A stretch of DNA of 63,865 nt, counting the filler, from Stramenopiles sp. TOSAG23-2 (taxonomy: Eukaryota): the NCBI GenBank assembly GCA_900128395.1. It is 27 parts of 27 records of this genome, joined end to end, with 100 filler letters (N's around TTAATTAATTAA, not from the genome) between each part and the next. Parts side by side here need not be neighbours in the genome. Positions count along the whole stretch, not along the records: positions 4,767 to 7,049 come from LT651871.1; 26 more parts are not named here. One strand, written 5' to 3'. A program made the position numbers and the translations under genes. The notes beneath the pieces were generated by a model. The model worked only from the letters and a program-made list of their open reading frames with translations, had not been told where the DNA came from and did no database searches. Positions 4,667 to 56,807 of this stretch are shown here, in pieces (within the stretch, counting starts at the first letter, position 1; each line of letters opens with the position of its first letter).

Positions 4667-5188
4667 NNNNNNNNNNNNNNNNNNNNNNNNNNNNNNNNNN
4701 NNNNNNNNNNTTAATTAATTAANNNNNNNNNNNNNNNNNNNNNNNNNNNNNNNNNNNNNNNNNNNNTAGGATCTATAAAATAGAAGATAAAGATCGAGAG
4801 AGCAGAAAAAATGGCAAAAGGGCACAGAAAAGATAATATGCACATATATTGTACTATTACTCTACTAAATCCGATTACTATATATACAAACAACAGAAAA
4901 GTGCAAAAGATAATAATATCTTTTTTTATATTACAGATATATATATTACCTTGTAATGTGCTAATATAGATATTTGCATTTATGTAATGTATATATGTAT
5001 ATTATATTGTATAATATATATTAGAATATATATATATATACACAATTCACAACGCCCAAGAAAAGATAATAGAGATACTGTACAGTACAATAAATAGATA
5101 TCTACAACAAATAAATTTCAAGCTCACTTTTTTTCAATATATATATATATATAATTCAACTTTCAATTTTAAATCATTTACGATAAAA

Positions 5189-6936
5189 ATGTCTTCCTTT
5201 TCTACTAGTAGTAACGATAATCATAATGCAAATTTCAATAATAAATTTGTGCCATTACTATATAAAAAACGTGAGTTGAAATCAAAAGATGTACGTAAAC
5301 ACCTAGAAGGAATTAGATTAACAAAGGAACATTATGATACCTTAGTCAATTCTGATTGTAATTTTTATGATGAAGAAACTGGAGCTTTGATTTTCAAATT
5401 TAGAACAAATAGAATTCAACATGAAAATATTCGAATTGCAAAAGCATGCTTTGGTACCATAGATACTAAAATGAAAATGTCTAAAACCAGAGGAGCAGCT
5501 GCAGGGAAAATTGTTAAGAAGAAATTATTAAAAAAACGTTTAAATTTACGGAAAGAAATAGAAGAAGTCCAACAAGTTTCTAATGGATTTGGATATATAA
5601 AATATAAAATTGATGTCTCGAAATTAATTGATTATTCTATACGAGATAGATTCCCTGGGGAAACAATTGGAGAAGAAAAAATATTTCAAAAAAATGGTAA
5701 AGCAATGAAATATTCATGGACTTCATCATCATCATCATCTAATTCTAATACTGGTAAATGGGTAGAACTTGAAGAGCAATGAAATATTCATGGACTTCAT
5801 CATCATCATCATCTGATTCTAATACTGGTAAATGGGTAGAACTTGAAGAGGTTACTAGTCAAATTACAAACAAACAAAAAACTTCAAATCCAGTCCGTTC
5901 ATACAAAGCTGGTTGGTATTATGATATGTATTTAAAATCAAATCGAAAATGGGGATTTTCAAAGGAATATCCACGTACATGGGAACGAGCTGCTCCATTT
6001 TTTGAAGATATTAATCATCAGTTTGAAAAAATATTACCAGAGGTTCATAAAGTACATACAGAAAGATTATTATGCCACAGTGACACAGTGGTTGCAAATG
6101 ATGTAGCTTTATCATCTTGCAGCATTAATGTCAATTATTCATCATTTTGCCACATGGATAGAGGTGACCTTAGGGATGGTTTTAGCACTTTAACAGTTAT
6201 TCAAATTGGAGAATATGAAGGTGGACTTTTTGTTATACCTGAATATAGAATTGCAATTGATGTACGGGAGGGCGATATATTGTTTTGCCAAAGTCATAAA
6301 TTATGGCATGGGAATACGAAAATTAAATCAATAAAAGGTGGAAAACGAATATCATTTGTTACATATTTAAAAGAAGCCTTGATACGAGGTACAATCGAAA
6401 TGTTAAAAACCCAAAGAAGAGAAGGTCTCATATTACAGAAAACTAAGAGTGGTGAAATCGATGATAATTTTATATTTCAAGCGAATCGTTTATCAGGTCC
6501 TAGACGAGTCTTCTATTCACCTTACAAAATTGGCATTGAACATAAAGAATTAGTATCGCCAACAACTGTTAAAAGAAAAAGTCATCCTCGCAATCATTTG
6601 AAACGGAAACGATATAAAAATGATAAAAAAAAAGAAAAAAGGCAAATAAAATTGTTTGATACGTATATAGGTGAACATGCACAAATTTTATTTCAACGAA
6701 AATGGTGGGATGTCACAGTTATGGAATATAATAAATCAAAACAGTGGCACAATGTTGTATTTTGGACAGATCAAGACACGATGCCTGTATGTATTGACCA
6801 GGAACTGGCTAACGGTTCATTTAGATTTGTCAAGCAGAAAGACAACAACAACAGCAACACCGCAGCAGGTGCACGAAGATACATATTTGACAGTTACAGA
6901 GAGATTGTGAAGAAGAAAGTACGCGTATCGTATTAA
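5189..6936 (+). CDS. TET/JBP-family 2OG-Fe(II) dioxygenase with C-terminal Tudor-like domain, split by a 74-bp tandem duplication
   Basis: SINVNYSSFCHMDRGD (HxD, 6151-6159), YEGGLFVIPEYRIAIDVREGDILF, LWHGNT (6307) and KRISFVTY (R, 6346). N-terminal LIFKFR and TRGAAAG. Removing one duplicate copy gives a single ~557-aa ORF. Confidence 0.82.
5701..5850 (+). repeat. 74-bp tandem duplication that frameshifts the TET/JBP gene
   Basis: agcaatgaaatattcatgg...gaacttgaag at 5701 and 5775, differing by one substitution (aat/gat). Confidence 0.95.
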
Positions 6937-7151
6937 TTAAAAAAATTAAATTTTACATACTTCGTACAACATGTACATTTCATATTATACATATCATTAT
7001 ATATACGGTTCAAATATACGTATATATAAAAATACGCGTACTTCAATTANNNNNNNNNNNNNNNNNNNNNNNNNNNNNNNNNNNNNNNNNNNNTTAATTA
7101 ATTAANNNNNNNNNNNNNNNNNNNNNNNNNNNNNNNNNNNNNNNNNNNNTA

Positions 7152-9431
7152 GGACAAGGGCGTACAAATGAAAAGTTTTTATCTGATACAAATCATGATT
7201 GTAAGAATTGTCCTAGTGGTACGTATTCCCGTACAAATTCATATGATGTATGCTATACTGCAGATCCTCCAAAAGAAGTTATTGTAGTTGGCAATCCTGG
7301 TAATGATGTTAAATGCGCCCCCGGTTATTGCAGTATTAATAGTAAGGTTGCGACCCTTCATCCAGATGATTTTGATAAAGATGACAAGTACATTCCTGGT
7401 CAATGTGTTATATGTACGTGTAAATGTGACAATGGAGAGGCGGCTAAGGGAACTGATTGTCCAAAAATTGGTGAGCATAAATGTATGAAATGTAAAGCTG
7501 ATTATGGTATACTTAAGAGAGCTGGAGATAAAGCATCTTATACATGTAAAAAATGTAACCCCGGTTCAATACCAAATGACGTTGTAGTTCATGGATATCA
7601 TACTGGTCATTGTGTATGTAAGAAAGGTTACGGTAATACAAAACGAGAAAAAACTGCGAATGGTAGATGGTGTGAAACGTGTGAAACGGGAAAATTTAGT
7701 GACTTTAAAGACGATACAAGATGTCGCGTACATATGACATGTCCAATTGGACAAGGTCGTGTAAGTGAAAGTGGGAAATTAGATAATGACAAAAATCTTG
7801 AGGATGAATGTAAAAATTGTGTAAGTGGTACGTACTCGTCTGTATCATCGCATGATACATGTTTCGATGCGCCTCCAAGTGTAGAAGCTGAGATAATACC
7901 ATTCCATGGTCCAGGCAGAGGCGTACGTTGTATCGATGGATATGAAAGTACTATTACAAAAAGTAGAGATGTTAGATATGATGGAAATGGTAAATATATT
8001 AAAAACCAGTGTAAACCAAAAAAATGCATTTGTCCAGAAGGTGGGACAGGATCAACATTGAAACAATGTCCAAAACACCACGATACATGTTGCATATCAT
8101 GCAAAGAAGATCAAGGATATCATTTAACAACAAATACACGTAATGAACCAGTATGTGAGCTACGCAAATGCACATGTAGGAATGGTGACGATCCGCATGG
8201 AGTCAATTGTCCAAAAAATTATAATGGAAAGATGTACTGTTCAAGCAAGCTGAAATGTGATGATGGATATTACTTTAAAAACAATGCATGTCACCTGAAA
8301 ATATGCGAGTGTACAAATGGAAAAAGAGCCACGGGAACTGAATGCAATAAACATGGTGATTTTAAATGTATTGCGTGTGAGGATGGTTATGGTTTTGGGA
8401 ATAGTCGGGAACTTCTTATTAATAACGTTAAAAAGGAAAAAGCATACATATGTGAAGAGTGTAAAGATGGTTCAATACCAAATGACGTTGTAGTTCATGG
8501 ATATCATACTGGTCATTGTGTATGTAAGAAAGGTTATGGTAATACAAAACGAGAAAAAACTGCGAATGGTATATGGTGTGAAGCGTGTGAAACGGGAAAA
8601 TTTAGTGACTTTAAAGACGATACAAGATGTCGCGTACATATGAAATGTCCAATTGGACAAGGTCGTGCAAATACGAAATTTTCATCTGTCGTGTGAAACG
8701 GGAAAATTTAGTGACTTTAAAGACGATACAAGATGTCGCGTACATATGAAATGTCCAATTGGACAAGGTCGTGTAAGTGAAAGTGGGAAATTAGATAATG
8801 ACAAAAATCTTGAACACGAATGTTTTAAATGTCCCATTGGTTCATACTCGTCTGTAGCATCACATGATGAATGTTTCAGTGTTCCAACAGGGACCATTGC
8901 GTCGCCCAACCCTAGACTGACTGGAAATACTGGTGTAAAGTGCAAGGACGGATATATAAGTGATTCTACTGGAAATAATCATGGTGAGGTTCGTGTAAGC
9001 GATTACGATAATAATGGTTTATTTATTGGCACATGTCGTCCAAAAAAGTGTAAATGCAGAAATGGAAACTACAAGCTAGTAGGTGAACCGGCAATTGGAA
9101 TTGAGTGTCCTATCGATGGACAAAACACATGTCTATATTGCAAGCCTGGTTATGTATTGAAAAATGGACACTGCATAGAATGCAAACCTAATAGTAATAC
9201 TTTGGAAACTGTTACAAAACATAAAGAACATGAATGTTTATGTAACATTGGGTACGGCAAAGCATCTATCAAATCGTCTAATGCTTTCGATGGATCTTCC
9301 TGTATTGCATGTCCATCCGGAAAATTTAGCACAAGTCTTTCTAGTCAACCATGTCAAAACCACAGTCCATGTCCAATAGGACAAGGGCGTACAAATGAAA
9401 AGTTTTTATCTGATACAAATCATGATTGTAA
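7152..9431 (+). CDS. Large Cys-rich repeat (TNFR/EGF/GCC2-GCC3-like) surface protein, internal fragment, frameshifted near 8668-8690
   Basis: Frame open from 7152 to 8696 and continuing in another frame to the contig end. Repeated CxxCxxGKFS and CPIGQGR units. Internal duplications 7563-7770/8469-8667 and 8585-8667/8691-8773. Confidence 0.8.
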
Positions 9432-45109: not shown

Positions 45110-46467
45110 AGTTCTTGAAATAACGTTGCATAAAATATTGTAAAAACACCTTGTCCAACACCATACAAATACTTTTTAAACCATGATATTTCAATATCTG
45201 TACCACTATATACTTTTTCAACAAATTTGTTTAACAATTCCATTGCATTTTCAGGAATATTTTTCATTAATGCATGTGCTTGATATACTTCCAAACGACT
45301 TCGGTCAGATGGTAAATTTTCCACGAATTTTTTCGCTGTTTCATAGGTAGCAAAATGCTGAGTAAAATCGTCTTCGGTTTTTATACGTTGCATAGCGACG
45401 TCTAAATTTTTGTTGCTCGTTTTCGATACCAATGTGTACATAGCAAGTGTACATATACAAATTTCTTTCATTTTCACCATTTGCATTTCTTTCGTTGGAT
45501 AAAATTTATATATCAAAAGTACTAAACATTTAAATTGGTCGCGATCCTGTTGTTTGAAAAATTTAACTCGTCGATTTTCTAATGCTTTTATGAATTTGTT
45601 ATCACTGTTGTATATCCCTGAAATATTGTCAAAAAAATCATAAAACAATTGGAAACGCGATTCCTTCATTGAATCTTTTTCTTGAATTCTTGCCAATCGT
45701 TGTTTACGTGGTCCTATTCCTTCCTTTCGAATACCACCTAATGCTTTTCCTTTCTGTACCCTTTGTTGTTCAATATATTTTAAAATTTTCAAATCTAAAT
45801 GGGGTTTTTGTAATAACAGAACCGTATTCGTTTGGGCGTTTAATGTGAAAAAATTTCTATAACACACATCCTGTAATTTCTCATATTGACCAGTTCTTAT
45901 TATCATTCCAGTAGTGGCATGTACAAATTTTCCAAAGTTACCAATTACAATCATAAGATCTGTGGTCCATTGATATACTGTGTATCCATCGATACCACCA
46001 GATTCGAAAAAATAAAACAAATTCATATTATTTTTTTTCAATTTACCAGACGAAATCCACAATTGGCATCCAATGTTTGAATCGTATATATTCATTTGCT
46101 TAATACCTGGTGCATTGTTGCCATCAAAATGCCAAAATGCACAATTGAATTTCACGTTACCATTTGGTGACAAAGCTTTAAGAATCATTTTTCGTGTGCC
46201 AAACTTGGACAAAATAGCTCGCACGTTAGTCCACCATGGTCGGGACGTGTGTAACTTTATAGAATTAATATTTGGTGCCCTCAATTGCCGCTGTAGCTCC
46301 TTTCCAGTGTTTTGTAGGCCTTGGTATAAAGAACGTAAATTCCCCCCAAATAATACTAAACGATAGTACATACGAATATAAGACACATACATGTCTTTCA
46401 TGTGAATGAAGCATTGTTTGTATAGATCGCATATATTTTTAACCGTATTTGTACGCATATGGGGCAT
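45110..46467 (-). CDS. Putative divergent TET/JBP-like dioxygenase fused to an HhH-GPD (EndoIII/Nth-like) domain; 3' partial, start uncertain
   Basis: RPWWTNVRAIL...CAFWHFDGNN (HxD, 46123-46131), FVHATT (45919) and YRNFFTL (45856). C-terminal LVSKTSNKNLDVAMQRI...VYSGTDI...LYGVGQG. Confidence 0.55.
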
Positions 46468-54450: not shown

Positions 54451-54726
54451 NNNNNNNNNNNNNNNNNNNNNNNNNNNNNNNNNNNNNNNNNNNNTTAATT
54501 AATTAANNNNNNNNNNNNNNNNNNNNNNNNNNNNNNNNNNNNNNNNNNNNAATCATCAAAAAATGTTAAATGAAATAATAAATCATTACTCGTCAGCTGC
54601 GAATTGCAGAATATATTCCATGATTGCAGAAGCAAAATAACATATAATATAGATATATATTATTGGTTGTCTCTCAATTGATACATATATAATATAATAA
54701 ATTCGAGGCAAGACAACAAAACAAAC

Positions 54727-56807
54727 ATGAATATTATGAGAACAAATTTATTATTTTCAATTATAAAAAAACAATCATCTTATAAATTATTTACAAAAAA
54801 GAAGATTTTGGTAGCATTATTTGTCGTTGTTGGTTTCCTTTTTAATTTAATAATACCAATAAATTCACAAACGGAATGGGATTGTTCTGCTACAACAAAT
54901 ACAGGTACGTTTAAACGTAATAATGATTGTACCATATCAGGTAGTGATCACGTATCTGTATTGAATACGTTAGAAATTGATGGTATAAATACGGATATGA
55001 ATAATTTAATTATTATAACTGCTGCGAGTAAACATCGTCATTTTTATTTAAATAATGCAAATGCTAAATTAATATTACGTTATATAAAATTAGTTAGTGG
55101 AGATGTTAGTAGTTATAGTAATGATCCTGAAGAATCAGGTGGATCAATATTGATTTACACAAACGGTGGTGAATTAAATTTATATTCATCTATTGTATTT
55201 AATAATAAAGCTGGTTGGGGTGGTGGAATAGTTGCATGGGGTGCTCTTGGGGTGCCTAACTGGATTATGAATATATATAATAGTATTATTCATAACAATG
55301 AAGCTACTGTTGGTTGTGGTGGTGGTATTTATATGGAATGGTCTGTTGTTTGTACTATTTACAATACTACCATAGATAAAAATCAAGCTCTTGGTTGTGG
55401 TGGTGGTATGTATATATATAACAGTGATGTAACGATGAAGAATACAATCATATCAAATAATAAAGCTATGGAGGAGGTTAGGTATGGAGGAGGTGGCCTC
55501 CATATAGACAGTGATATAAATCCAGGCACTACAGTCATCTGCCATCAATCTTCATTTATCAATAATGATGCATCTAGTTATGGTGATGAAATATATACAT
55601 CGGGATCACCAACCATATCATTAATAAATACATATTTCAATAATCCAAATAATATTTATATTTATAATGATACAAGTAATGGATCGCCAACATGGAAAAC
55701 ATGTTTAGATAATTTATGTACCAAAACACCATTCACTGGCACATGCAATCAACTAAACAAAAATAATAAAAAATTAGGTGTAATATGTCCGTGTTCAATA
55801 ACTAATAACTTTGATTGCGTAGTATGTGGTATTGGAAAATTTAATCCTTTAGAAAATCTTCAAACATACCAACTTGATATTTGCGCCAATTGTAGTATTG
55901 GAAAGTTTAATGATTTACAAGGCCAATCAACTTGCAAAAAATGTGATGTTGGTAAATTTAATAATTTACAAGGCCAATCAAACGAAACGTCTTGTAAAAA
56001 ATGCGGTGTTGGAAAATTTAATAGTTTACAAGGCCAATCAAATTGCACTAGCTGTGGTGTTGGTAAATTTAATAGTTTACAAGGCCAATCAAATGAAATA
56101 GCTTGCAAAAAATGTGGCGTTGGTAAATTTAATAGTTTACAAGGTCAATCAACTTGCAGAAGCTGTGGTGTTGGCAAATTCAATGATTTACAAGGCCAAA
56201 CATCGGAAACATCATGCAAATCCTGTCCTATTAATTTTCCAGAAACATGCGACGTGGATTATACAGATTGTCTACTCACTAATGCAGGATCTGCCAATCT
56301 TTGCGCAACAACAATAACATTTAATACTGAAACACGAGAAACACATAATGACTTCCGAACTGGTAACATATATGGCAAATACACAACAACTAAAGATGAA
56401 GGTAACAAAATTATTGTATATATGCACAATAATAAATCAACAGAGTTACAATTAAACGCTTTAAAAACGAAAAACATACTTATTGGAGACATACCAATCA
56501 AAATTGCAGATTATCAACAATACATCAATAATTTCAATATTCAATATAATAGTTTTAACTATCCACCACCAAAACCAATAATAGAATTATGCAAGGTAAT
56601 TCTTTGTGAAGGAATACCTCCAGGGGATTGTTCCGGGTTTAAAAATTCAGTTCCATCCATAGATTTACAAACATGTGTACCTTGCACGGATACTCCAATA
56701 TGGATGATAATCACATTACTAATTGTAATGGGAGCAATAATGTTTTTTGCATTGCGTAAATTGGTACAATATACGGAAAAATATCCTGGTGCAATTGGTG
56801 GTACAAT
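54727..56807 (+). CDS. Surface protein with Pmp-like beta-helix (GGGI/FxxN) repeats, GCC2-GCC3 Cys repeats and a TM segment, 3' partial
   Basis: NKA..GGGI repeats, tandem CGVGKFNSLQGQS..C units at 55820-56230, and TM WMIITLLIVMGAIMFFAL. Confidence 0.8.

What the first reader, a model, noticed from the sequence alone, without database searches (positions are those of the whole stretch)
5189..6936. Virus/phage-type TET/JBP dioxygenase with a C-terminal Tudor-like reader in a protist
Seen: an intact HxD/H/R set (HMDRGD, WHGNT, RISFVTY). The N-terminal YDTLVNSD...LIFKFR...TRGAAAG layout resembles, from memory, JBP-like enzymes of phages and giant viruses more than animal TET. After a basic NLS-like stretch comes IGEHAQILFQRKWWDVTVMEYNKSKQWHNVVF, a Tudor/chromo-barrel-like pattern. 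The gene is intronless but has host-like AT content and TA-microsatellite flanks. Inference: a domesticated, chromatin-targeted T or 5mC oxidase, implying modified bases (5hmU/5hmC or derivatives) in this genome. With the 45110-46467 gene, that makes two different TET/JBP-like genes in 27 random contigs, hinting at a family expansion.
Basis: partly seen in the sequence, partly recalled or inferred. Interest (0 to 1): 0.75.

Follow-up and report, generated by a model that had tools for sequence, protein, structure and literature searches.

The report
Marine protist TET/JBP DNA-base oxidase
This is a real gene for a TET/JBP-type enzyme that oxidises methylated DNA bases, from an uncultured marine protist and related to giant-virus and phage versions, but this assembled copy is split by a 74-base duplication and its proposed Tudor-type tail is only weakly supported.

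Summary
Window 5189-6936 encodes a TET/JBP 2OG/Fe(II) dioxygenase: Pfam PF12851 scores 47.3 bits against a cut-off of 34.9, and the HxD, H and R residues are intact. The model's best solved matches are TET2 (Z 23.2) and NgTET1 (Z 20.1), well above the best AlkB-type match (Z 14.5).

As assembled, a 74-bp tandem duplication (5701-5850) splits the gene into a 197-aa and a 385-aa ORF. Copies 96-99% identical in other marine metagenomes are intact (555-559 aa).

The gene belongs to a six-member clade of long, multi-domain proteins. One relative has an 83-nt GT-AG intron. In 4 of 4 loci with downstream DNA, a convergent F5/8-type-C gene follows. It is therefore a vertically kept eukaryotic gene, not a co-assembled virus. 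Its wider family sits in giant-virus-like contigs, and phage homologues are more distant.

The Tudor-like tail has only weak support:
- no Pfam or sequence homologue;
- a model with pLDDT 42.6 whose best matches are Tudor domains at Z 5.2-5.7;
- language-model leads of 0.83-0.90.

The tail is also the fastest-evolving part of the protein. The substrate (5mC or T) is undecided. The "second TET/JBP gene" at 45110-46467 has no support, and no family expansion is shown.

The parts
4981..5040 (.). TA-rich microsatellite in the 5' flank
   Evidence: TRF rows, period 2/12
5137..5153 (.). (AT)8.5 microsatellite 36 bp upstream of the ATG
   Evidence: TRF, 100% matches
5189..5782 (+). ORF1, 197 aa. It is the N-terminal part of the dioxygenase and ends at a TGA (5780-5782) created by the duplication.
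   Evidence: 99.5% identical to residues 1-196 of the intact 558-aa P0001
5249..5506 (+). Conserved N-terminal segment of the TET/JBP fold (YDTLVNSD..LIFKFR..TRGAAAG)
   Evidence: Conserved columns in A1; pLDDT 92-98 for residues 21-100 of the model
5507..5886 (+). Expanded variable insertion between TRGAAAGK and SNPVRSYKAG. It is about 100 aa in the intact form, against about 45 aa in the ~300-aa relatives, and it contains the duplication.
   Evidence: Alignment A1 columns 400-530. P0003 and P0004 share the long form. A variable insertion domain at this place is described as essential in phage 5mYOX (PMC13229309 section 11).
5701..5774 (+). Copy 1 of the 74-bp tandem unit (has AAT = Asn at 5741-5743)
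   Evidence: 100% identical over 82 bp to the start of L008
5775..5850 (+). Copy 2 of the 74-bp unit plus 2 bp (AG) of microhomology (has GAT = Asp at 5815-5817). Other copies do not have this second unit.
   Evidence: In L007 the stretch 814-883 aligns to both window copies, so it is single-copy there.
5779..6936 (+). ORF2, 385 aa: rest of the insertion, catalytic core, basic linker and C-terminal tail
   Evidence: 96% identical to P0001 residues 171-557
5941..6372 (+). Pfam Tet_JBP (PF12851) match, ORF2 residues 55-198
   Evidence: E 1.7e-12, 47.3 bits against a cut-off of 34.9
6151..6159 (+). HxD Fe(II) ligands (H125 and D127 of ORF2; H297 and D299 of P0001)
   Evidence: Sequence; invariant in 38 of 38 sequences
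6307..6309 (+). Distal Fe(II) His (H177 of ORF2; H349 of P0001)
   Evidence: Invariant in A1
6346..6348 (+). 2-oxoglutarate-binding Arg (R190 of ORF2; R362 of P0001)
   Evidence: Invariant in A1
6571..6651 (+). Lys/Arg-rich stretch (KRKSHPRNHLKRKRYKNDKKKEKRQIK), NLS-like
   Evidence: Sequence only; the nuclear-import role is inferred and was not tested
6646..6933 (+). C-terminal tail (96 aa, P0081): an orphan beta-rich module, possibly a Tudor-like SH3 barrel
   Evidence: No Pfam hit. Only 3 spurious repeat-protein hits in 1.84e9 representatives. AF2 pLDDT 42.6 with strands at 11-16, 19-29 and 34-39. Best structural matches: RDM15 Tudor Z 5.7, Spindlin-4 5.2, PHF20L1 Tudor 5.2. Atlas leads.
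6775..6819 (+). Hypervariable segment of the tail (DTMPVCIDQELANGS here; STxHVHIDH(E/R)LA.. in other copies)
   Evidence: Variable columns 505-519 among 12 of the 24 cluster members; tail dN/dS 0.70 against 0.13 in the core

Best explanation
The region is a nuclear gene of an uncultured, AT-rich marine protist. It encodes a TET/JBP-family (5-methylpyrimidine dioxygenase, 5mYOX) enzyme.

Shown:
- The catalytic domain has the family's HMM signature, an intact HxD...H Fe(II) triad and the 2OG-binding Arg.
- Its predicted fold is closest to the solved TETs.

Inferred mechanism:
- The enzyme flips a 5-methylpyrimidine out of DNA and hydroxylates the C5-methyl group with Fe(II), 2-oxoglutarate and O2.
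- The reaction is either 5mC to 5hmC (possibly further) or T to 5hmU. My odds are about 50% 5mC, 40% T and 10% other.
- The N-terminal segment and the enlarged variable insertion would contact DNA.
- The Lys/Arg-rich linker would act as a nuclear import signal.
- The 96-aa tail would act as a targeting module. About 60% odds that it is a Tudor-like SH3 barrel, and about 30% that it reads a methyl-lysine mark.

Origin:
- The gene belongs to a clade of long, multi-domain orthologues kept at a conserved chromosomal locus in several related protists.
- That clade sits inside a family whose short (~300-aa) members lie in giant-virus-like contigs, with phage enzymes further out.

The copy in this window:
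- It is broken by a 74-bp tandem duplication inside the variable insertion.
- About 65% odds that the junction is real in the sequenced DNA, making this a null allele or a dead copy.
- About 35% odds that it is an amplification or assembly chimera of two variants.
- Intact versions exist elsewhere.
For: Family membership:
- Pfam PF12851 scores 47.3 bits against a cut-off of 34.9.
- 39 of 41 homologues carry PF12851.
- H297, D299, H349 and R362 are invariant in 38 of 38 sequences.

Fold:
- The core of the model has pLDDT above 95.
- Foldseek's top PDB rows are all CcTet, NgTET1, TET2 and CMD1 at E 1e-10 to 1e-8. FTO and AlkB types start at 1e-5.
- VIA-align gives TET2 Z 23.2 (261 aligned, rmsd 3.4), NgTET1 20.1, CMD1 19.2 and CcTet 18.9. 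The next row is ABH3 at 14.5.

Viral kinship:
- The BFVD top hits, at E 1.6e-24 to 1e-20, include Sylvanvirus and cyanophage S-CBWM1 TET/JBP proteins.
- 13 phage records match at 30-38% identity.
- Relatives lie in a giant-virus MAG contig (L001) and in NCLDV-like contigs that also carry RNR, Rpb5, Ras and MORN genes.

Eukaryotic host gene:
- Of the 35 other ORFs of at least 150 aa in the window, 25 were scanned. They carry TIP49, Pkinase, PP2C, Ank, EF-hand, PDZ and similar families.
- The L010 relative has an 83-nt GTAAG...CAG intron exactly inside the conserved SNP|VRSYKAG motif, and a FAM221 neighbour.
- A convergent F5/8-type-C gene follows the TET gene in L008, L009, L012 and L013. Its products are 37-48% identical.
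- These six proteins form one clade, with SH-aLRT 99.

Broken copy:
- Searches show the duplication.
- L007 is 99% identical in protein, has one ORF of 555 codons and a single unit.
- Of the 15 listed members of the 24-member cluster, 8 are 557-559 aa.
- The junction has 2 bp of microhomology. The one mismatch between the units (N or D codon) is a polymorphism also seen in L008 and P0050.

Selection: dN/dS is 0.13 in the core against L007, on small counts.

Tail: all point to Tudor, Spin/Ssty or Agenet-type barrels. The 27%-identical tail of P0002 aligns with W20, Y28, N29, H35, F39 and D51 conserved.

Distribution:
- 14 DNA-type runs hold 0.48-0.76 of the contig's words. 13 of them carry a marine, seawater or aquatic metagenome label or none; the other (X10) is a named, coded organism.
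- The 20 holder rows span 14 studies.
Against:
- The intron and synteny evidence comes from relatives, not from the window contig. The contig's own 3' flank departs from the syntenic L008 only 19 bp after the stop.
- The tail has no Pfam hit at E<=10 and no real sequence homologue.
- The tail model is unreliable (pLDDT 42.6), and Z 5-6 is within what common small barrels give (note).
- The tail is the least constrained part: 23 of 96 columns vary among near-identical copies, and dN/dS is 0.70. That is unusual for a conserved histone reader.
- The substrate cannot be read from the sequence. Relatives sit next to C5-methyltransferases (L011, L022), next to Dam-type methyltransferases (L001, L015) or next to ParB (phage HTVC112P).
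- Published work shows that a C5-MT neighbour does not guarantee 5mC activity (PMC8256090 passages).
- By sequence profile alone, the solved TETs are barely detectable (E 1.1).
Confidence: 0.8

Rival explanations
1. The contig comes from a giant virus, or an endogenous viral element, that was co-assembled or binned with the protist. The enzyme would then hypermodify viral DNA, as in phage and giant-virus TET plus methyltransferase or glycosyltransferase cassettes.
For: - Short family members lie in giant-virus-like contigs. L011 has a C5-MTase and a GT1 gene beside the TET gene. L001 and L015 have a Dam-type MTase nearby.
- The BFVD matches are far stronger than the PDB matches.
- The contig is only 2.3 kb and holds no other gene.
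Against: - The gene falls in a clade (SH-aLRT 99) apart from the viral-context rows.
- A clade member has a spliceosomal intron and a FAM221 neighbour.
- 4 of 4 clade loci with downstream DNA share a cellular-type F5/8-type-C neighbour across GC contents of 0.34 to 0.49.
- No methyltransferase or glycosyltransferase lies beside it in L008, L009, L010, L012 or L013. Pfam was run on the main neighbouring ORFs of L008, L010 and L013. For L009 and L012 only ORF lists were read, and their downstream neighbour was identified by alignment.
- Composition matches the other contigs.
Confidence: 0.07
2. The gene is one of many dispersed copies of an expanding, possibly transposon-borne TET/JBP family, as in basidiomycete fungi. 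The window copy would be one of its pseudogenes.
For: - 24 distinct proteins at 90% identity or more, each on its own short contig of 0.9-3.6 kb.
- Several frame-broken variants: P0041 (a separate cluster of 8 members) and P0051 are shifted at an A-run, and P0045 starts at the same Met as ORF2.
- The 3' flank of the window and L007 differs from that of L008.
- Fungal TET/JBP genes are known to ride DNA transposons (PMC12730594; search listing and abstract start only).
Against: - The same words occur in runs of 14 studies, so many cluster members can be population variants from different samples rather than paralogues.
- Only one copy lies in the window's 28 contigs.
- No transposase, terminal repeat or shared flank with other contigs was found.
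- Conserved microsynteny across diverged species argues for a stable single locus.
- The core is under purifying selection, with dN/dS 0.13.
Confidence: 0.13
3. The C-terminal tail is not a chromatin reader. It would be a fast-evolving, largely disordered or lineage-specific extension, for example a nucleic-acid-binding Sm/OB-like barrel or a linker with no specific ligand. The enzyme would then be targeted only by its catalytic domain and basic stretch.
For: - No Pfam hit and no homologues.
- pLDDT is 39-64 in the full-length model and 42.6 in the tail-only model.
- Hfq/Sm-like and other small barrels score within 1 Z of the Tudor rows.
- 23 of 96 columns vary, and dN/dS is 0.70.
- Orthologues replace the tail with unrelated extensions: the P0003 tail and the P0005 N-terminal 330 aa.
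Against: - Two tails that are 27% identical draw the same Tudor-clan neighbours in the Atlas.
- About 28 of the 50 rows in the fold search are Tudor, chromo-barrel, MBT, PWWP or SAWADEE domains, and the top three are histone-mark-binding Tudor or Spindlin domains. The count of 28 was made by eye from the titles.
- The stretch from beta-2 to beta-3, KWWDVTVMEYNKSKQWHNVVFWTDQ, is invariant among the copies.
Confidence: 0.4

Closest known systems
Phage and giant-virus 5-methylpyrimidine dioxygenases (5mYOX/TET; Burke et al. 2021, PMC8256090; O'Toole et al. 2026, PMC13229309)
   Same: - Same Pfam family and the same compact layout: an N-terminal segment, a variable insertion and the DSBH core.
- Best structural matches in BFVD, at E 1.6e-24.
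- tblastn hits to phages HTVC112P, P12024L, Cr30 and DLP_6 at 33-38% identity.
- The ~300-aa relatives lie in viral-type contigs beside C5- or N6-methyltransferases and a glycosyltransferase.
   Different: - It sits in a eukaryotic chromosome context, with no methyltransferase, ParB or glycosyltransferase neighbour.
- The variable insertion is about 100 aa rather than about 45.
- It carries an added basic linker and a 96-aa tail.
- It is separated from the three phage rows by a long branch, SH-aLRT 99.
Solved eukaryotic TETs: human TET2, Naegleria NgTET1, Chlamydomonas CMD1, Coprinopsis CcTet
   Same: - Same fold. Z is 23.2, 20.1, 19.2 and 18.9 over 229-261 aligned residues.
- Same metal and 2OG ligands.
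   Different: - Only 10-16% identity.
- The family profile finds CcTet at E 1.1 and none of the others.
- There is no Cys-rich or CXXC domain.
Thymine hydroxylases JBP1/2 of kinetoplastids and dinoflagellate TJ1 (PMC11572971)
   Same: They are protist TET/JBP enzymes that make a modified base (5hmU) in nuclear DNA. This is a possible function here too, and the dinoflagellate enzyme is linked to transposon silencing (abstract and passages).
   Different: - No sequences of these enzymes were available for comparison here.
- There is no J-binding or SWI2/SNF2 domain.
- Specificity for T is untested.
Tudor / 'royal family' SH3-barrel readers (RDM15 Tudor, Spindlin, PHF20L1 Tudor)
   Same: - The strand pattern is similar, and these are the top fold-search rows (Z 5.7, 5.2 and 5.2, with 56-61 residues aligned).
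- The Atlas neighbours are PTM_DIR17_Tudor, Spin-Ssty, Tudor-knot and Agenet.
   Different: - There is no HMM match to any such family at E<=10.
- The model has low confidence.
- An aromatic cage has not been shown.
- The tail evolves fast.
Transposon-associated TET/JBP expansions in fungi (PMC12730594; listing and abstract start only)
   Same: There are many near-identical sequences on short contigs, some of them frame-broken.
   Different: No transposase or terminal repeats were seen. Synteny is conserved across species. Only one copy lies in the window.

Membership tests
TET/JBP (Pfam PF12851; 5-methylpyrimidine dioxygenases) | Match to the family HMM above its curated cut-off | tested here: met
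   ORF2 residues 55-198: E 1.7e-12, 47.3 bits against 34.9. 39 of 41 homologues carry PF12851.
TET/JBP (Pfam PF12851; 5-methylpyrimidine dioxygenases) | HxD...H Fe(II) triad and the Arg that binds 2-oxoglutarate | tested here: met
   H125, D127, H177 and R190 of ORF2. The equivalent columns are invariant in 38 of 38 sequences.
TET/JBP (Pfam PF12851; 5-methylpyrimidine dioxygenases) | Double-stranded beta-helix fold closest to the solved TETs rather than to AlkB or prolyl hydroxylases | tested here: met
   TET2 Z 23.2, NgTET1 20.1, CMD1 19.2 and CcTet 18.9, against ABH3 at 14.5. Foldseek gives E 1e-10 for TETs against 1e-5 or weaker for FTO and AlkB types. The model is of the intact paralogue P0001.
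TET/JBP (Pfam PF12851; 5-methylpyrimidine dioxygenases) | Oxidation of 5mC or T in DNA | not testable with these tools
   This needs an enzyme assay. Gene neighbourhoods of relatives are mixed: C5-MT, Dam or ParB.
TET/JBP (Pfam PF12851; 5-methylpyrimidine dioxygenases) | One uninterrupted reading frame in this copy (needed for a functional product; not a criterion of family membership) | tested here: not met
   The 74-bp duplication splits it into a 197-aa and a 385-aa ORF. The L007 and P0001 forms are intact.
Tudor / royal-family methyl-lysine readers | HMM match to a Tudor, chromo, MBT, PWWP or Agenet family | tested here: not met
   The tail gives 0 Pfam families at E<=10. phmmer against 1.84e9 representatives gave only 3 repeat-protein hits.
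Tudor / royal-family methyl-lysine readers | Five-stranded SH3-like beta-barrel | tested here: inconclusive
   The tail model has pLDDT 42.6 and 4 strands. The best matches are Tudor domains at Z 5.2-5.7, within 1 Z of the Sm/Hfq rows. Atlas scores are 0.83-0.90.
Tudor / royal-family methyl-lysine readers | Aromatic cage and binding of a methylated Lys or Arg | not testable with these tools
   W20, Y28 and F39 are conserved between the P0001 and P0002 tails, but no reliable model places them.
Viral DNA-hypermodification cassette (5mYOX with a C5-MT, ParB or glycosyltransferase neighbour) | A partner gene next to the dioxygenase | tested here: not met
   The window contig holds only this gene. 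The near-identical L008 has an F5/8-type-C gene as neighbour, as do L009, L012 and L013. The 5' side of the window gene is unseen beyond 422 bp.
   The best AlkB-type row has Z 14.5, against 18-23 for sixteen TET-family entries.

The most novel reading that the evidence does not exclude
A widespread lineage of uncultured marine protists keeps a viral-type 5-methylpyrimidine dioxygenase at a conserved chromosomal locus. Each species gives it a different, fast-evolving targeting module. In this species the module would be a Tudor-like barrel whose ligand-facing beta-3/beta-4 segment is hypervariable between otherwise near-identical copies. That pattern would fit an enzyme aimed at rapidly changing targets, such as transposon or virus chromatin, and it would imply 5hmC or 5hmU as a regulated base in these genomes.
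Probability: 0.2. Interest if true: 0.65.

Novelty: new member of a known kind. Interest (0 to 1): 0.42.

Why it matters
TET/JBP enzymes write or erase epigenetic DNA marks, and few protist versions have been studied. Here a clade of such enzymes is close to giant-virus forms yet stably kept in the chromosomes of abundant marine protists. That gives a concrete candidate for testing two things: whether these organisms carry 5hmC or 5hmU, and how viral DNA-modifying enzymes were taken over for host chromatin. The intact 555-559-aa forms can be assayed directly with published phage-5mYOX protocols. The result also corrects the record. This assembled copy is broken, the Tudor label is not established, and a family expansion is not shown.

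Tried and rejected
No whole genome or reads:
- The genome search 'own': no whole genome is held, so no genome-wide paralogue count was possible.
So there is no read-level test of the duplication, depth or expression.
- The small RNA shares of runs X17-X20 (0.10-0.16) were never laid and are no evidence.

Searches that found nothing useful:
- phmmer of ORF2 alone against PDB gave only chance-level rows: an intein at E 0.023 and UBR5 at 0.27.
- The family profile against PDB gave CcTet at E 1.1 only.
- The Pfam Lipl32 hit on the linker and tail (17.9-20.8 bits against a cut-off of 25) was taken as chance.
- A single-protein scan of viral contigs found nothing. The profile scan found 2 loci.
- The genome-contig scan of bacteria and archaea found 1 locus, a 4.7-kb contig of a single-cell assembly. 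The family is essentially absent from cellular prokaryotes in that collection.
- The search of earlier findings gave nothing for this genome or this sequence.

Tail:
- No Pfam hit.
- The exhaustive phmmer search gave 3 hits, all internally repetitive proteins, judged spurious.
- BLASTP of the tail against P0002 gave E 0.045.
- Foldseek was not run on the tail model, because its confidence is too low.

Second gene (45110-46467):
- No Pfam family at E<=0.1.
- hhalign against the family gave probability 0.6%.
- Only one homologue was found, 99% identical and without a Pfam domain.

Literature:
- Four searches were run. Their terms were 'tet jbp' + phage + protist + 5-hydroxymethylcytosine; 'tet jbp' + Tudor + stramenopiles + fused; phage-encoded + ten-eleven translocation + hypermodification + 5-methylcytosine; and 'tet jbp' + domain architectures + Tudor + chromo.
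- The two searches that paired 'tet jbp' with Tudor listed no paper holding 'tet jbp'; listed papers needed only 3 of the 4 terms, and only 14 of 19 and 15 of 82 were shown. None of the four turned up a TET/JBP-Tudor fusion in protists.
- Subscription papers are not covered. These include the 2009-2013 comparative analyses of the family, which I recall but did not see.

Rejected idea: the 74-bp repeat is not an intron or a programmed frameshift, because L007 reads straight through with one unit.
Full report
**What the window is.** The 63,865-base window is not one locus. It is 28 contigs of about 2.25 kb, sorted by length and joined by N/TTAATTAATTAA spacers. The finding lies on contig 4767-7049 (2,283 bp, GC 0.295), which holds only this gene. 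The other contigs have GC 0.26-0.40. Of their 35 ORFs of at least 150 aa, 25 were scanned, and they carry ordinary eukaryotic families: TIP49, carboxyl transferase, MFS, ankyrin, Nudix, PDZ, Dus, EF-hand, Ephrin_rec_like, protein kinase, PP2C and an ion channel. No whole genome is held for the window.

**The observation.** ORF1 (5189-5782, 197 aa) and ORF2 (5779-6936, 385 aa) lie on the + strand.
- A 74-bp tandem repeat at 5701-5850 separates them (2.0 copies, 98% matches). Self-blastn gives 76 bp with one mismatch.
- The junction creates the TGA at 5780-5782 and shifts the frame.
H125/D127 (HMDRGD), H177 (WHGNT) and R190 (RISFVTY) of ORF2 are invariant in an alignment of 38 relatives.
- TA microsatellites flank the gene.

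**The catalytic domain.**
- Pfam Tet_JBP matches ORF2 residues 55-198 at E 1.7e-12, 47.3 bits against a cut-off of 34.9.
- A search of 5.8 billion proteins gave 41 hits, 39 of them with PF12851. The best is P0001 (558 aa, 96% identical over all of ORF2), whose N-terminus equals ORF1. It is the same gene without the duplication.
- An AlphaFold model of P0001 built on the 38-sequence alignment has pLDDT above 95 for residues 21-100 and 210-390.
- Foldseek against the PDB ranks only TET-family entries first (CcTet, NgTET1, TET2, CMD1; E 1e-10 to 1e-8). FTO and AlkB types start at 1e-5.
- VIA-align gives TET2 Z 23.2 (261 aligned, rmsd 3.4), NgTET1 20.1, CMD1 19.2 and CcTet 18.9. The next entry is ABH3 at 14.5.
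- By sequence, the solved TETs are almost out of reach: the family profile finds CcTet at E 1.1.

**Viral kinship.**
- In the library of predicted viral structures the best matches are much stronger, E 1.6e-24 to 1e-20 at 17-23% identity. They include a Sylvanvirus TET/JBP protein and cyanophage S-CBWM1.
- tblastn finds 13 phage records at 30-38% identity, with best E 7e-22.
- In Pelagibacter phage HTVC112P the homologue lies directly after a ParB-like gene. In Nonlabens phage P12024L a DNA methyltransferase lies two genes away.
- O'Toole et al. 2026 (PMC13229309; abstract and sections 5 and 11 read) describe ParB-linked phage enzymes as thymine dioxygenases. They also describe an essential variable insertion at the place where this protein has its enlarged insert.
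- Profile scans found relatives in a giant-virus MAG contig (L001) and another IMG/VR contig (L002). Only one hit came from 185,579 prokaryote genomes.
- Among the metagenome loci:
  - L011 has RNR, Rpb5, a C5-methyltransferase and a GT1 glycosyltransferase around the TET gene.
  - L022 has a C5-methyltransferase beside it.
  - L015, L016 and L001 have a Dam-type methyltransferase and SET-domain genes.
  - L002 and L023 have Ras, MORN and papain-type genes.
- Earlier notes of this scan describe similar giant-virus TET plus glycosyltransferase pairs. They are leads only.

**A host gene, not a co-assembled virus.** A quick IQ-TREE tree of 47 rows (301 columns) puts P0001 with P0002, P0003 and P0004 (SH-aLRT 96), and then with P0005 and P0006 (99).
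- All six are long proteins with extra regions.
- Their link to the clade that holds the giant-virus MAG is weak (84). The three phage rows sit on a long branch (99).
- The tree lacks JBP, NgTET and fungal sequences, because none could be obtained through the tools.
- Three lines of evidence tie the clade to eukaryotic chromosomes.
  - In L010, the gene that encodes P0002 (67% identical over the best tblastn segment), the reading frame is interrupted by an 83-nt GTAAG...CAG intron exactly between SNP and VRSYKAG. The upstream neighbour is FAM221.
  - In L008 (98% nucleotide identity to the window), a convergent gene for an N-rich F5/8-type-C protein ends 32 bp after the TET stop.
  - Homologues of that neighbour (37-48% identical) follow the TET gene in L009, L012 and L013 as well. 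That is 4 of 4 loci of the clade for which downstream DNA exists, with GC from 0.34 to 0.49.
- This is conserved microsynteny across diverged species, so inheritance is vertical.
- Caveat: the window's own 3' flank (113 bp, AT-rich, non-coding) matches L007 but departs from L008 from 19 bp after the stop. The window copy is therefore either a second locus or carries an AT-rich insertion in the intergenic spacer.

**The duplication.**
- L007, a JGI marine metagenome contig, is 99% identical in protein. It has one ORF of 555 codons and a single copy of the unit.
- Of the 15 listed members of P0001's 24-member cluster, 8 are 557-559 aa.
- The two units differ at one base (5741 A against 5815 G, Asn or Asp). 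Both states occur in other copies: L008 and P0050 have Asn.
- The junction shows 2 bp (AG) of microhomology. A k-mer assembler cannot invent such a junction without reads that carry it. I therefore favour, at about 65%, a real junction in the sequenced DNA, whether a null allele, a dead copy or an amplification chimera.
- P0045, a 387-aa protein that starts at the same Met as ORF2 on a 2,140-bp contig, suggests a similar break in another assembly. This is indirect.
- Other broken variants are shifted at the A-run after ITNK: P0041, which has 8 members, and P0051.
- ORF2 alone lacks 172 N-terminal residues that the model places inside the fold, so the split product is probably inactive.

**The tail.**
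- The last 96 residues (6646-6933) have no Pfam match at E<=10.
- An exhaustive phmmer search of 1.84 billion representatives gave three hits, all internally repetitive proteins.
- The tail is poorly modelled: pLDDT 39-64 in the full-length model, and 42.6 when folded alone with 14 sequences. Strands fall at 11-16, 19-29, 34-39 and 78-82.
- A Foldseek-independent search of 48,161 chains with that weak model ranks the RDM15 Tudor domain first (Z 5.7, 56 aligned, rmsd 2.0), then Spindlin-4 and the PHF20L1 Tudor domain (both 5.2).
- By my reading of the titles, about 28 of the 50 listed rows are Tudor, chromo-barrel, MBT, PWWP or SAWADEE domains. Sm/Hfq barrels are within 1 Z, and Z below 8 can reflect a common arrangement.
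- The ESM Atlas places both this tail and the 27%-identical tail of P0002 nearest to PTM_DIR17_Tudor, Spin-Ssty, Tudor-knot and Agenet clusters. The scores of 0.83-0.90 are leads only.
- Against a conserved reader, the tail is the variable part of the protein. Among 12 of the 24 cluster members, 23 of 96 tail columns vary, against 8 of 164 core columns. Six of those eight core columns come from one aberrant N-end.
- Against L007, dN/dS is 0.70 in the tail, 0.13 in the core and 0.08 in the linker. The counts are small, at 10.5 non-synonymous changes in the tail and 2 in the core.
- The variation is concentrated at residues 505-519 of P0001, in two main forms (DTMPVCIDQE and STxHVHIDH). KWWDVTVMEYNKSKQWHNVVFWTDQ is invariant.
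- Orthologues carry other extensions instead: the P0003 tail, the 330-aa N-terminus of P0005, and a SAP-like end in the more distant L018.
- I put a Tudor-like barrel at about 60% and a methyl-lysine-reading role at about 30%.

**Mechanism and substrate.**
- Shown: the family, the ligands and the fold.
- Inferred: Fe(II)/2OG-dependent hydroxylation of the C5-methyl group of a flipped-out pyrimidine in DNA, nuclear import through the Lys/Arg-rich stretch (6571-6651), and targeting by the tail.
- The substrate is open.
  - Two subclades of relatives sit beside C5-methyltransferases, which suggests 5mC.
  - However, Burke et al. 2021 (PMC8256090; passages) found C5-MT-linked clade C enzymes inactive on 5mC, and one of them oxidised thymine.
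  - The nearest phage hit is ParB-linked, which is the thymine type of O'Toole et al.
  - Dinoflagellate TET/JBP homologues make 5hmU (PMC11572971; passages).
- From memory only, the Asp three residues after the metal-binding Asp (HMDRGD; nearly invariant) corresponds to the NgTET1 residue that contacts the N4 amino group of 5mC. This was not tested here.
- My odds are 5mC 50%, T 40% and other 10%.

**Distribution.**
- 14 DNA-type runs hold 0.48-0.76 of the contig's sampled words. 13 of them are labelled marine, seawater or aquatic metagenome, or carry no label; the other (X10) is a named, coded organism.
- The 20 holder rows span 14 studies.
- Two metatranscriptome runs hold 0.22-0.23.
- None of these runs was laid, so expression is only hinted at.

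**The companion claim.**
- The ORF at 45110-46467 (- strand) has no Pfam family, no profile similarity to this family (probability 0.6%) and one near-identical homologue without domains.
It could not be folded.
- tblastn with P0001 finds no second copy in the window.
- "Two TET/JBP genes in 27 contigs" and a family expansion are therefore not supported. The 24-member cluster can be explained by population variants across many samples.

**Verdict.**
- This is a real, well-supported TET/JBP dioxygenase gene of a marine protist, with viral-type affinities and a conserved chromosomal locus.
- This copy is frame-broken, and the tail is an orphan module with weak Tudor-like signals.
- It is a new member of a known kind. 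It would rise to a new variant if the tail is shown to be a reader.

Noticed in passing
window 45110-46467 (- strand): A 452-aa orphan ORF. It has no Pfam family and only one near-identical homologue, whose cluster has 27 members. By eye it shows an HxD...H-like spacing (WHFDGN ... KFVHATTG ... YRNFF). It may be a very divergent 2OG oxygenase or nothing of the kind.
   Followed up: partly
window 6775-6819 (P0001 residues 505-519): A hypervariable segment in the tail. It takes two main forms (DTMPVCIDQE and STxHVHIDH) among copies whose catalytic core is almost invariant. Tail dN/dS is 0.70 against 0.13 in the core. Whether this reflects relaxed or diversifying selection is unexplained.
   Followed up: partly
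L008 1203-2867, L009 1729-3108, L012 2236-3894, L013 3887-5365 (all - strand): A conserved convergent neighbour of the TET gene. It is a secreted-looking protein with an F5/8-type-C (discoidin) domain and a shared ECSSLDGPFC motif, 37-48% identical across four loci. Its function is unknown, and no link to the dioxygenase is evident.
   Followed up: partly
L011 9974-13304: An NCLDV-like contig (RNR small subunit, Rpb5) carries TET/JBP (300 aa), a C5-cytosine methyltransferase and a GT1 glycosyltransferase side by side. This is a complete candidate cassette for making a glycosylated 5hmC.
   Followed up: no
L001 2968-6798; L015 1210-9491; L016: Giant-virus MAG relatives have a Dam-type N6-adenine methyltransferase two genes upstream of the TET gene and two SET-domain genes downstream. 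This is an unusual pairing for a 5-methylpyrimidine oxidase.
   Followed up: no
L018 4437-6362 and L020 2819-4744: A 642-aa TET/JBP protein with a SAP-like C-terminal motif (PF18953, 25.9 bits, just under the cut-off of 26.3). It lies in a contig with DUF4419 and NmrA genes. This is another lineage-specific DNA-targeting fusion.
   Followed up: no
P0041 (8 members) and P0051; window 5862-5880: Database variants of the same gene are frame-shifted by +1 or -1 at the A-rich run after ITNK (aaacaaacaaaaaac in the window). This is a second recurrent break point, 12-30 bp downstream of the duplication.
   Followed up: partly
window 7152-8693 and 54682-56805: Cys-rich repeat proteins on two other contigs, one of them with Ephrin_rec_like repeats. 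They look like surface proteins typical of protists.
   Followed up: no
L010 3403-3485: An 83-nt GT-AG intron splits the conserved SNPV|RSYKAG motif in the 67%-identical relative. The window gene has no intron at that place.
   Followed up: yes
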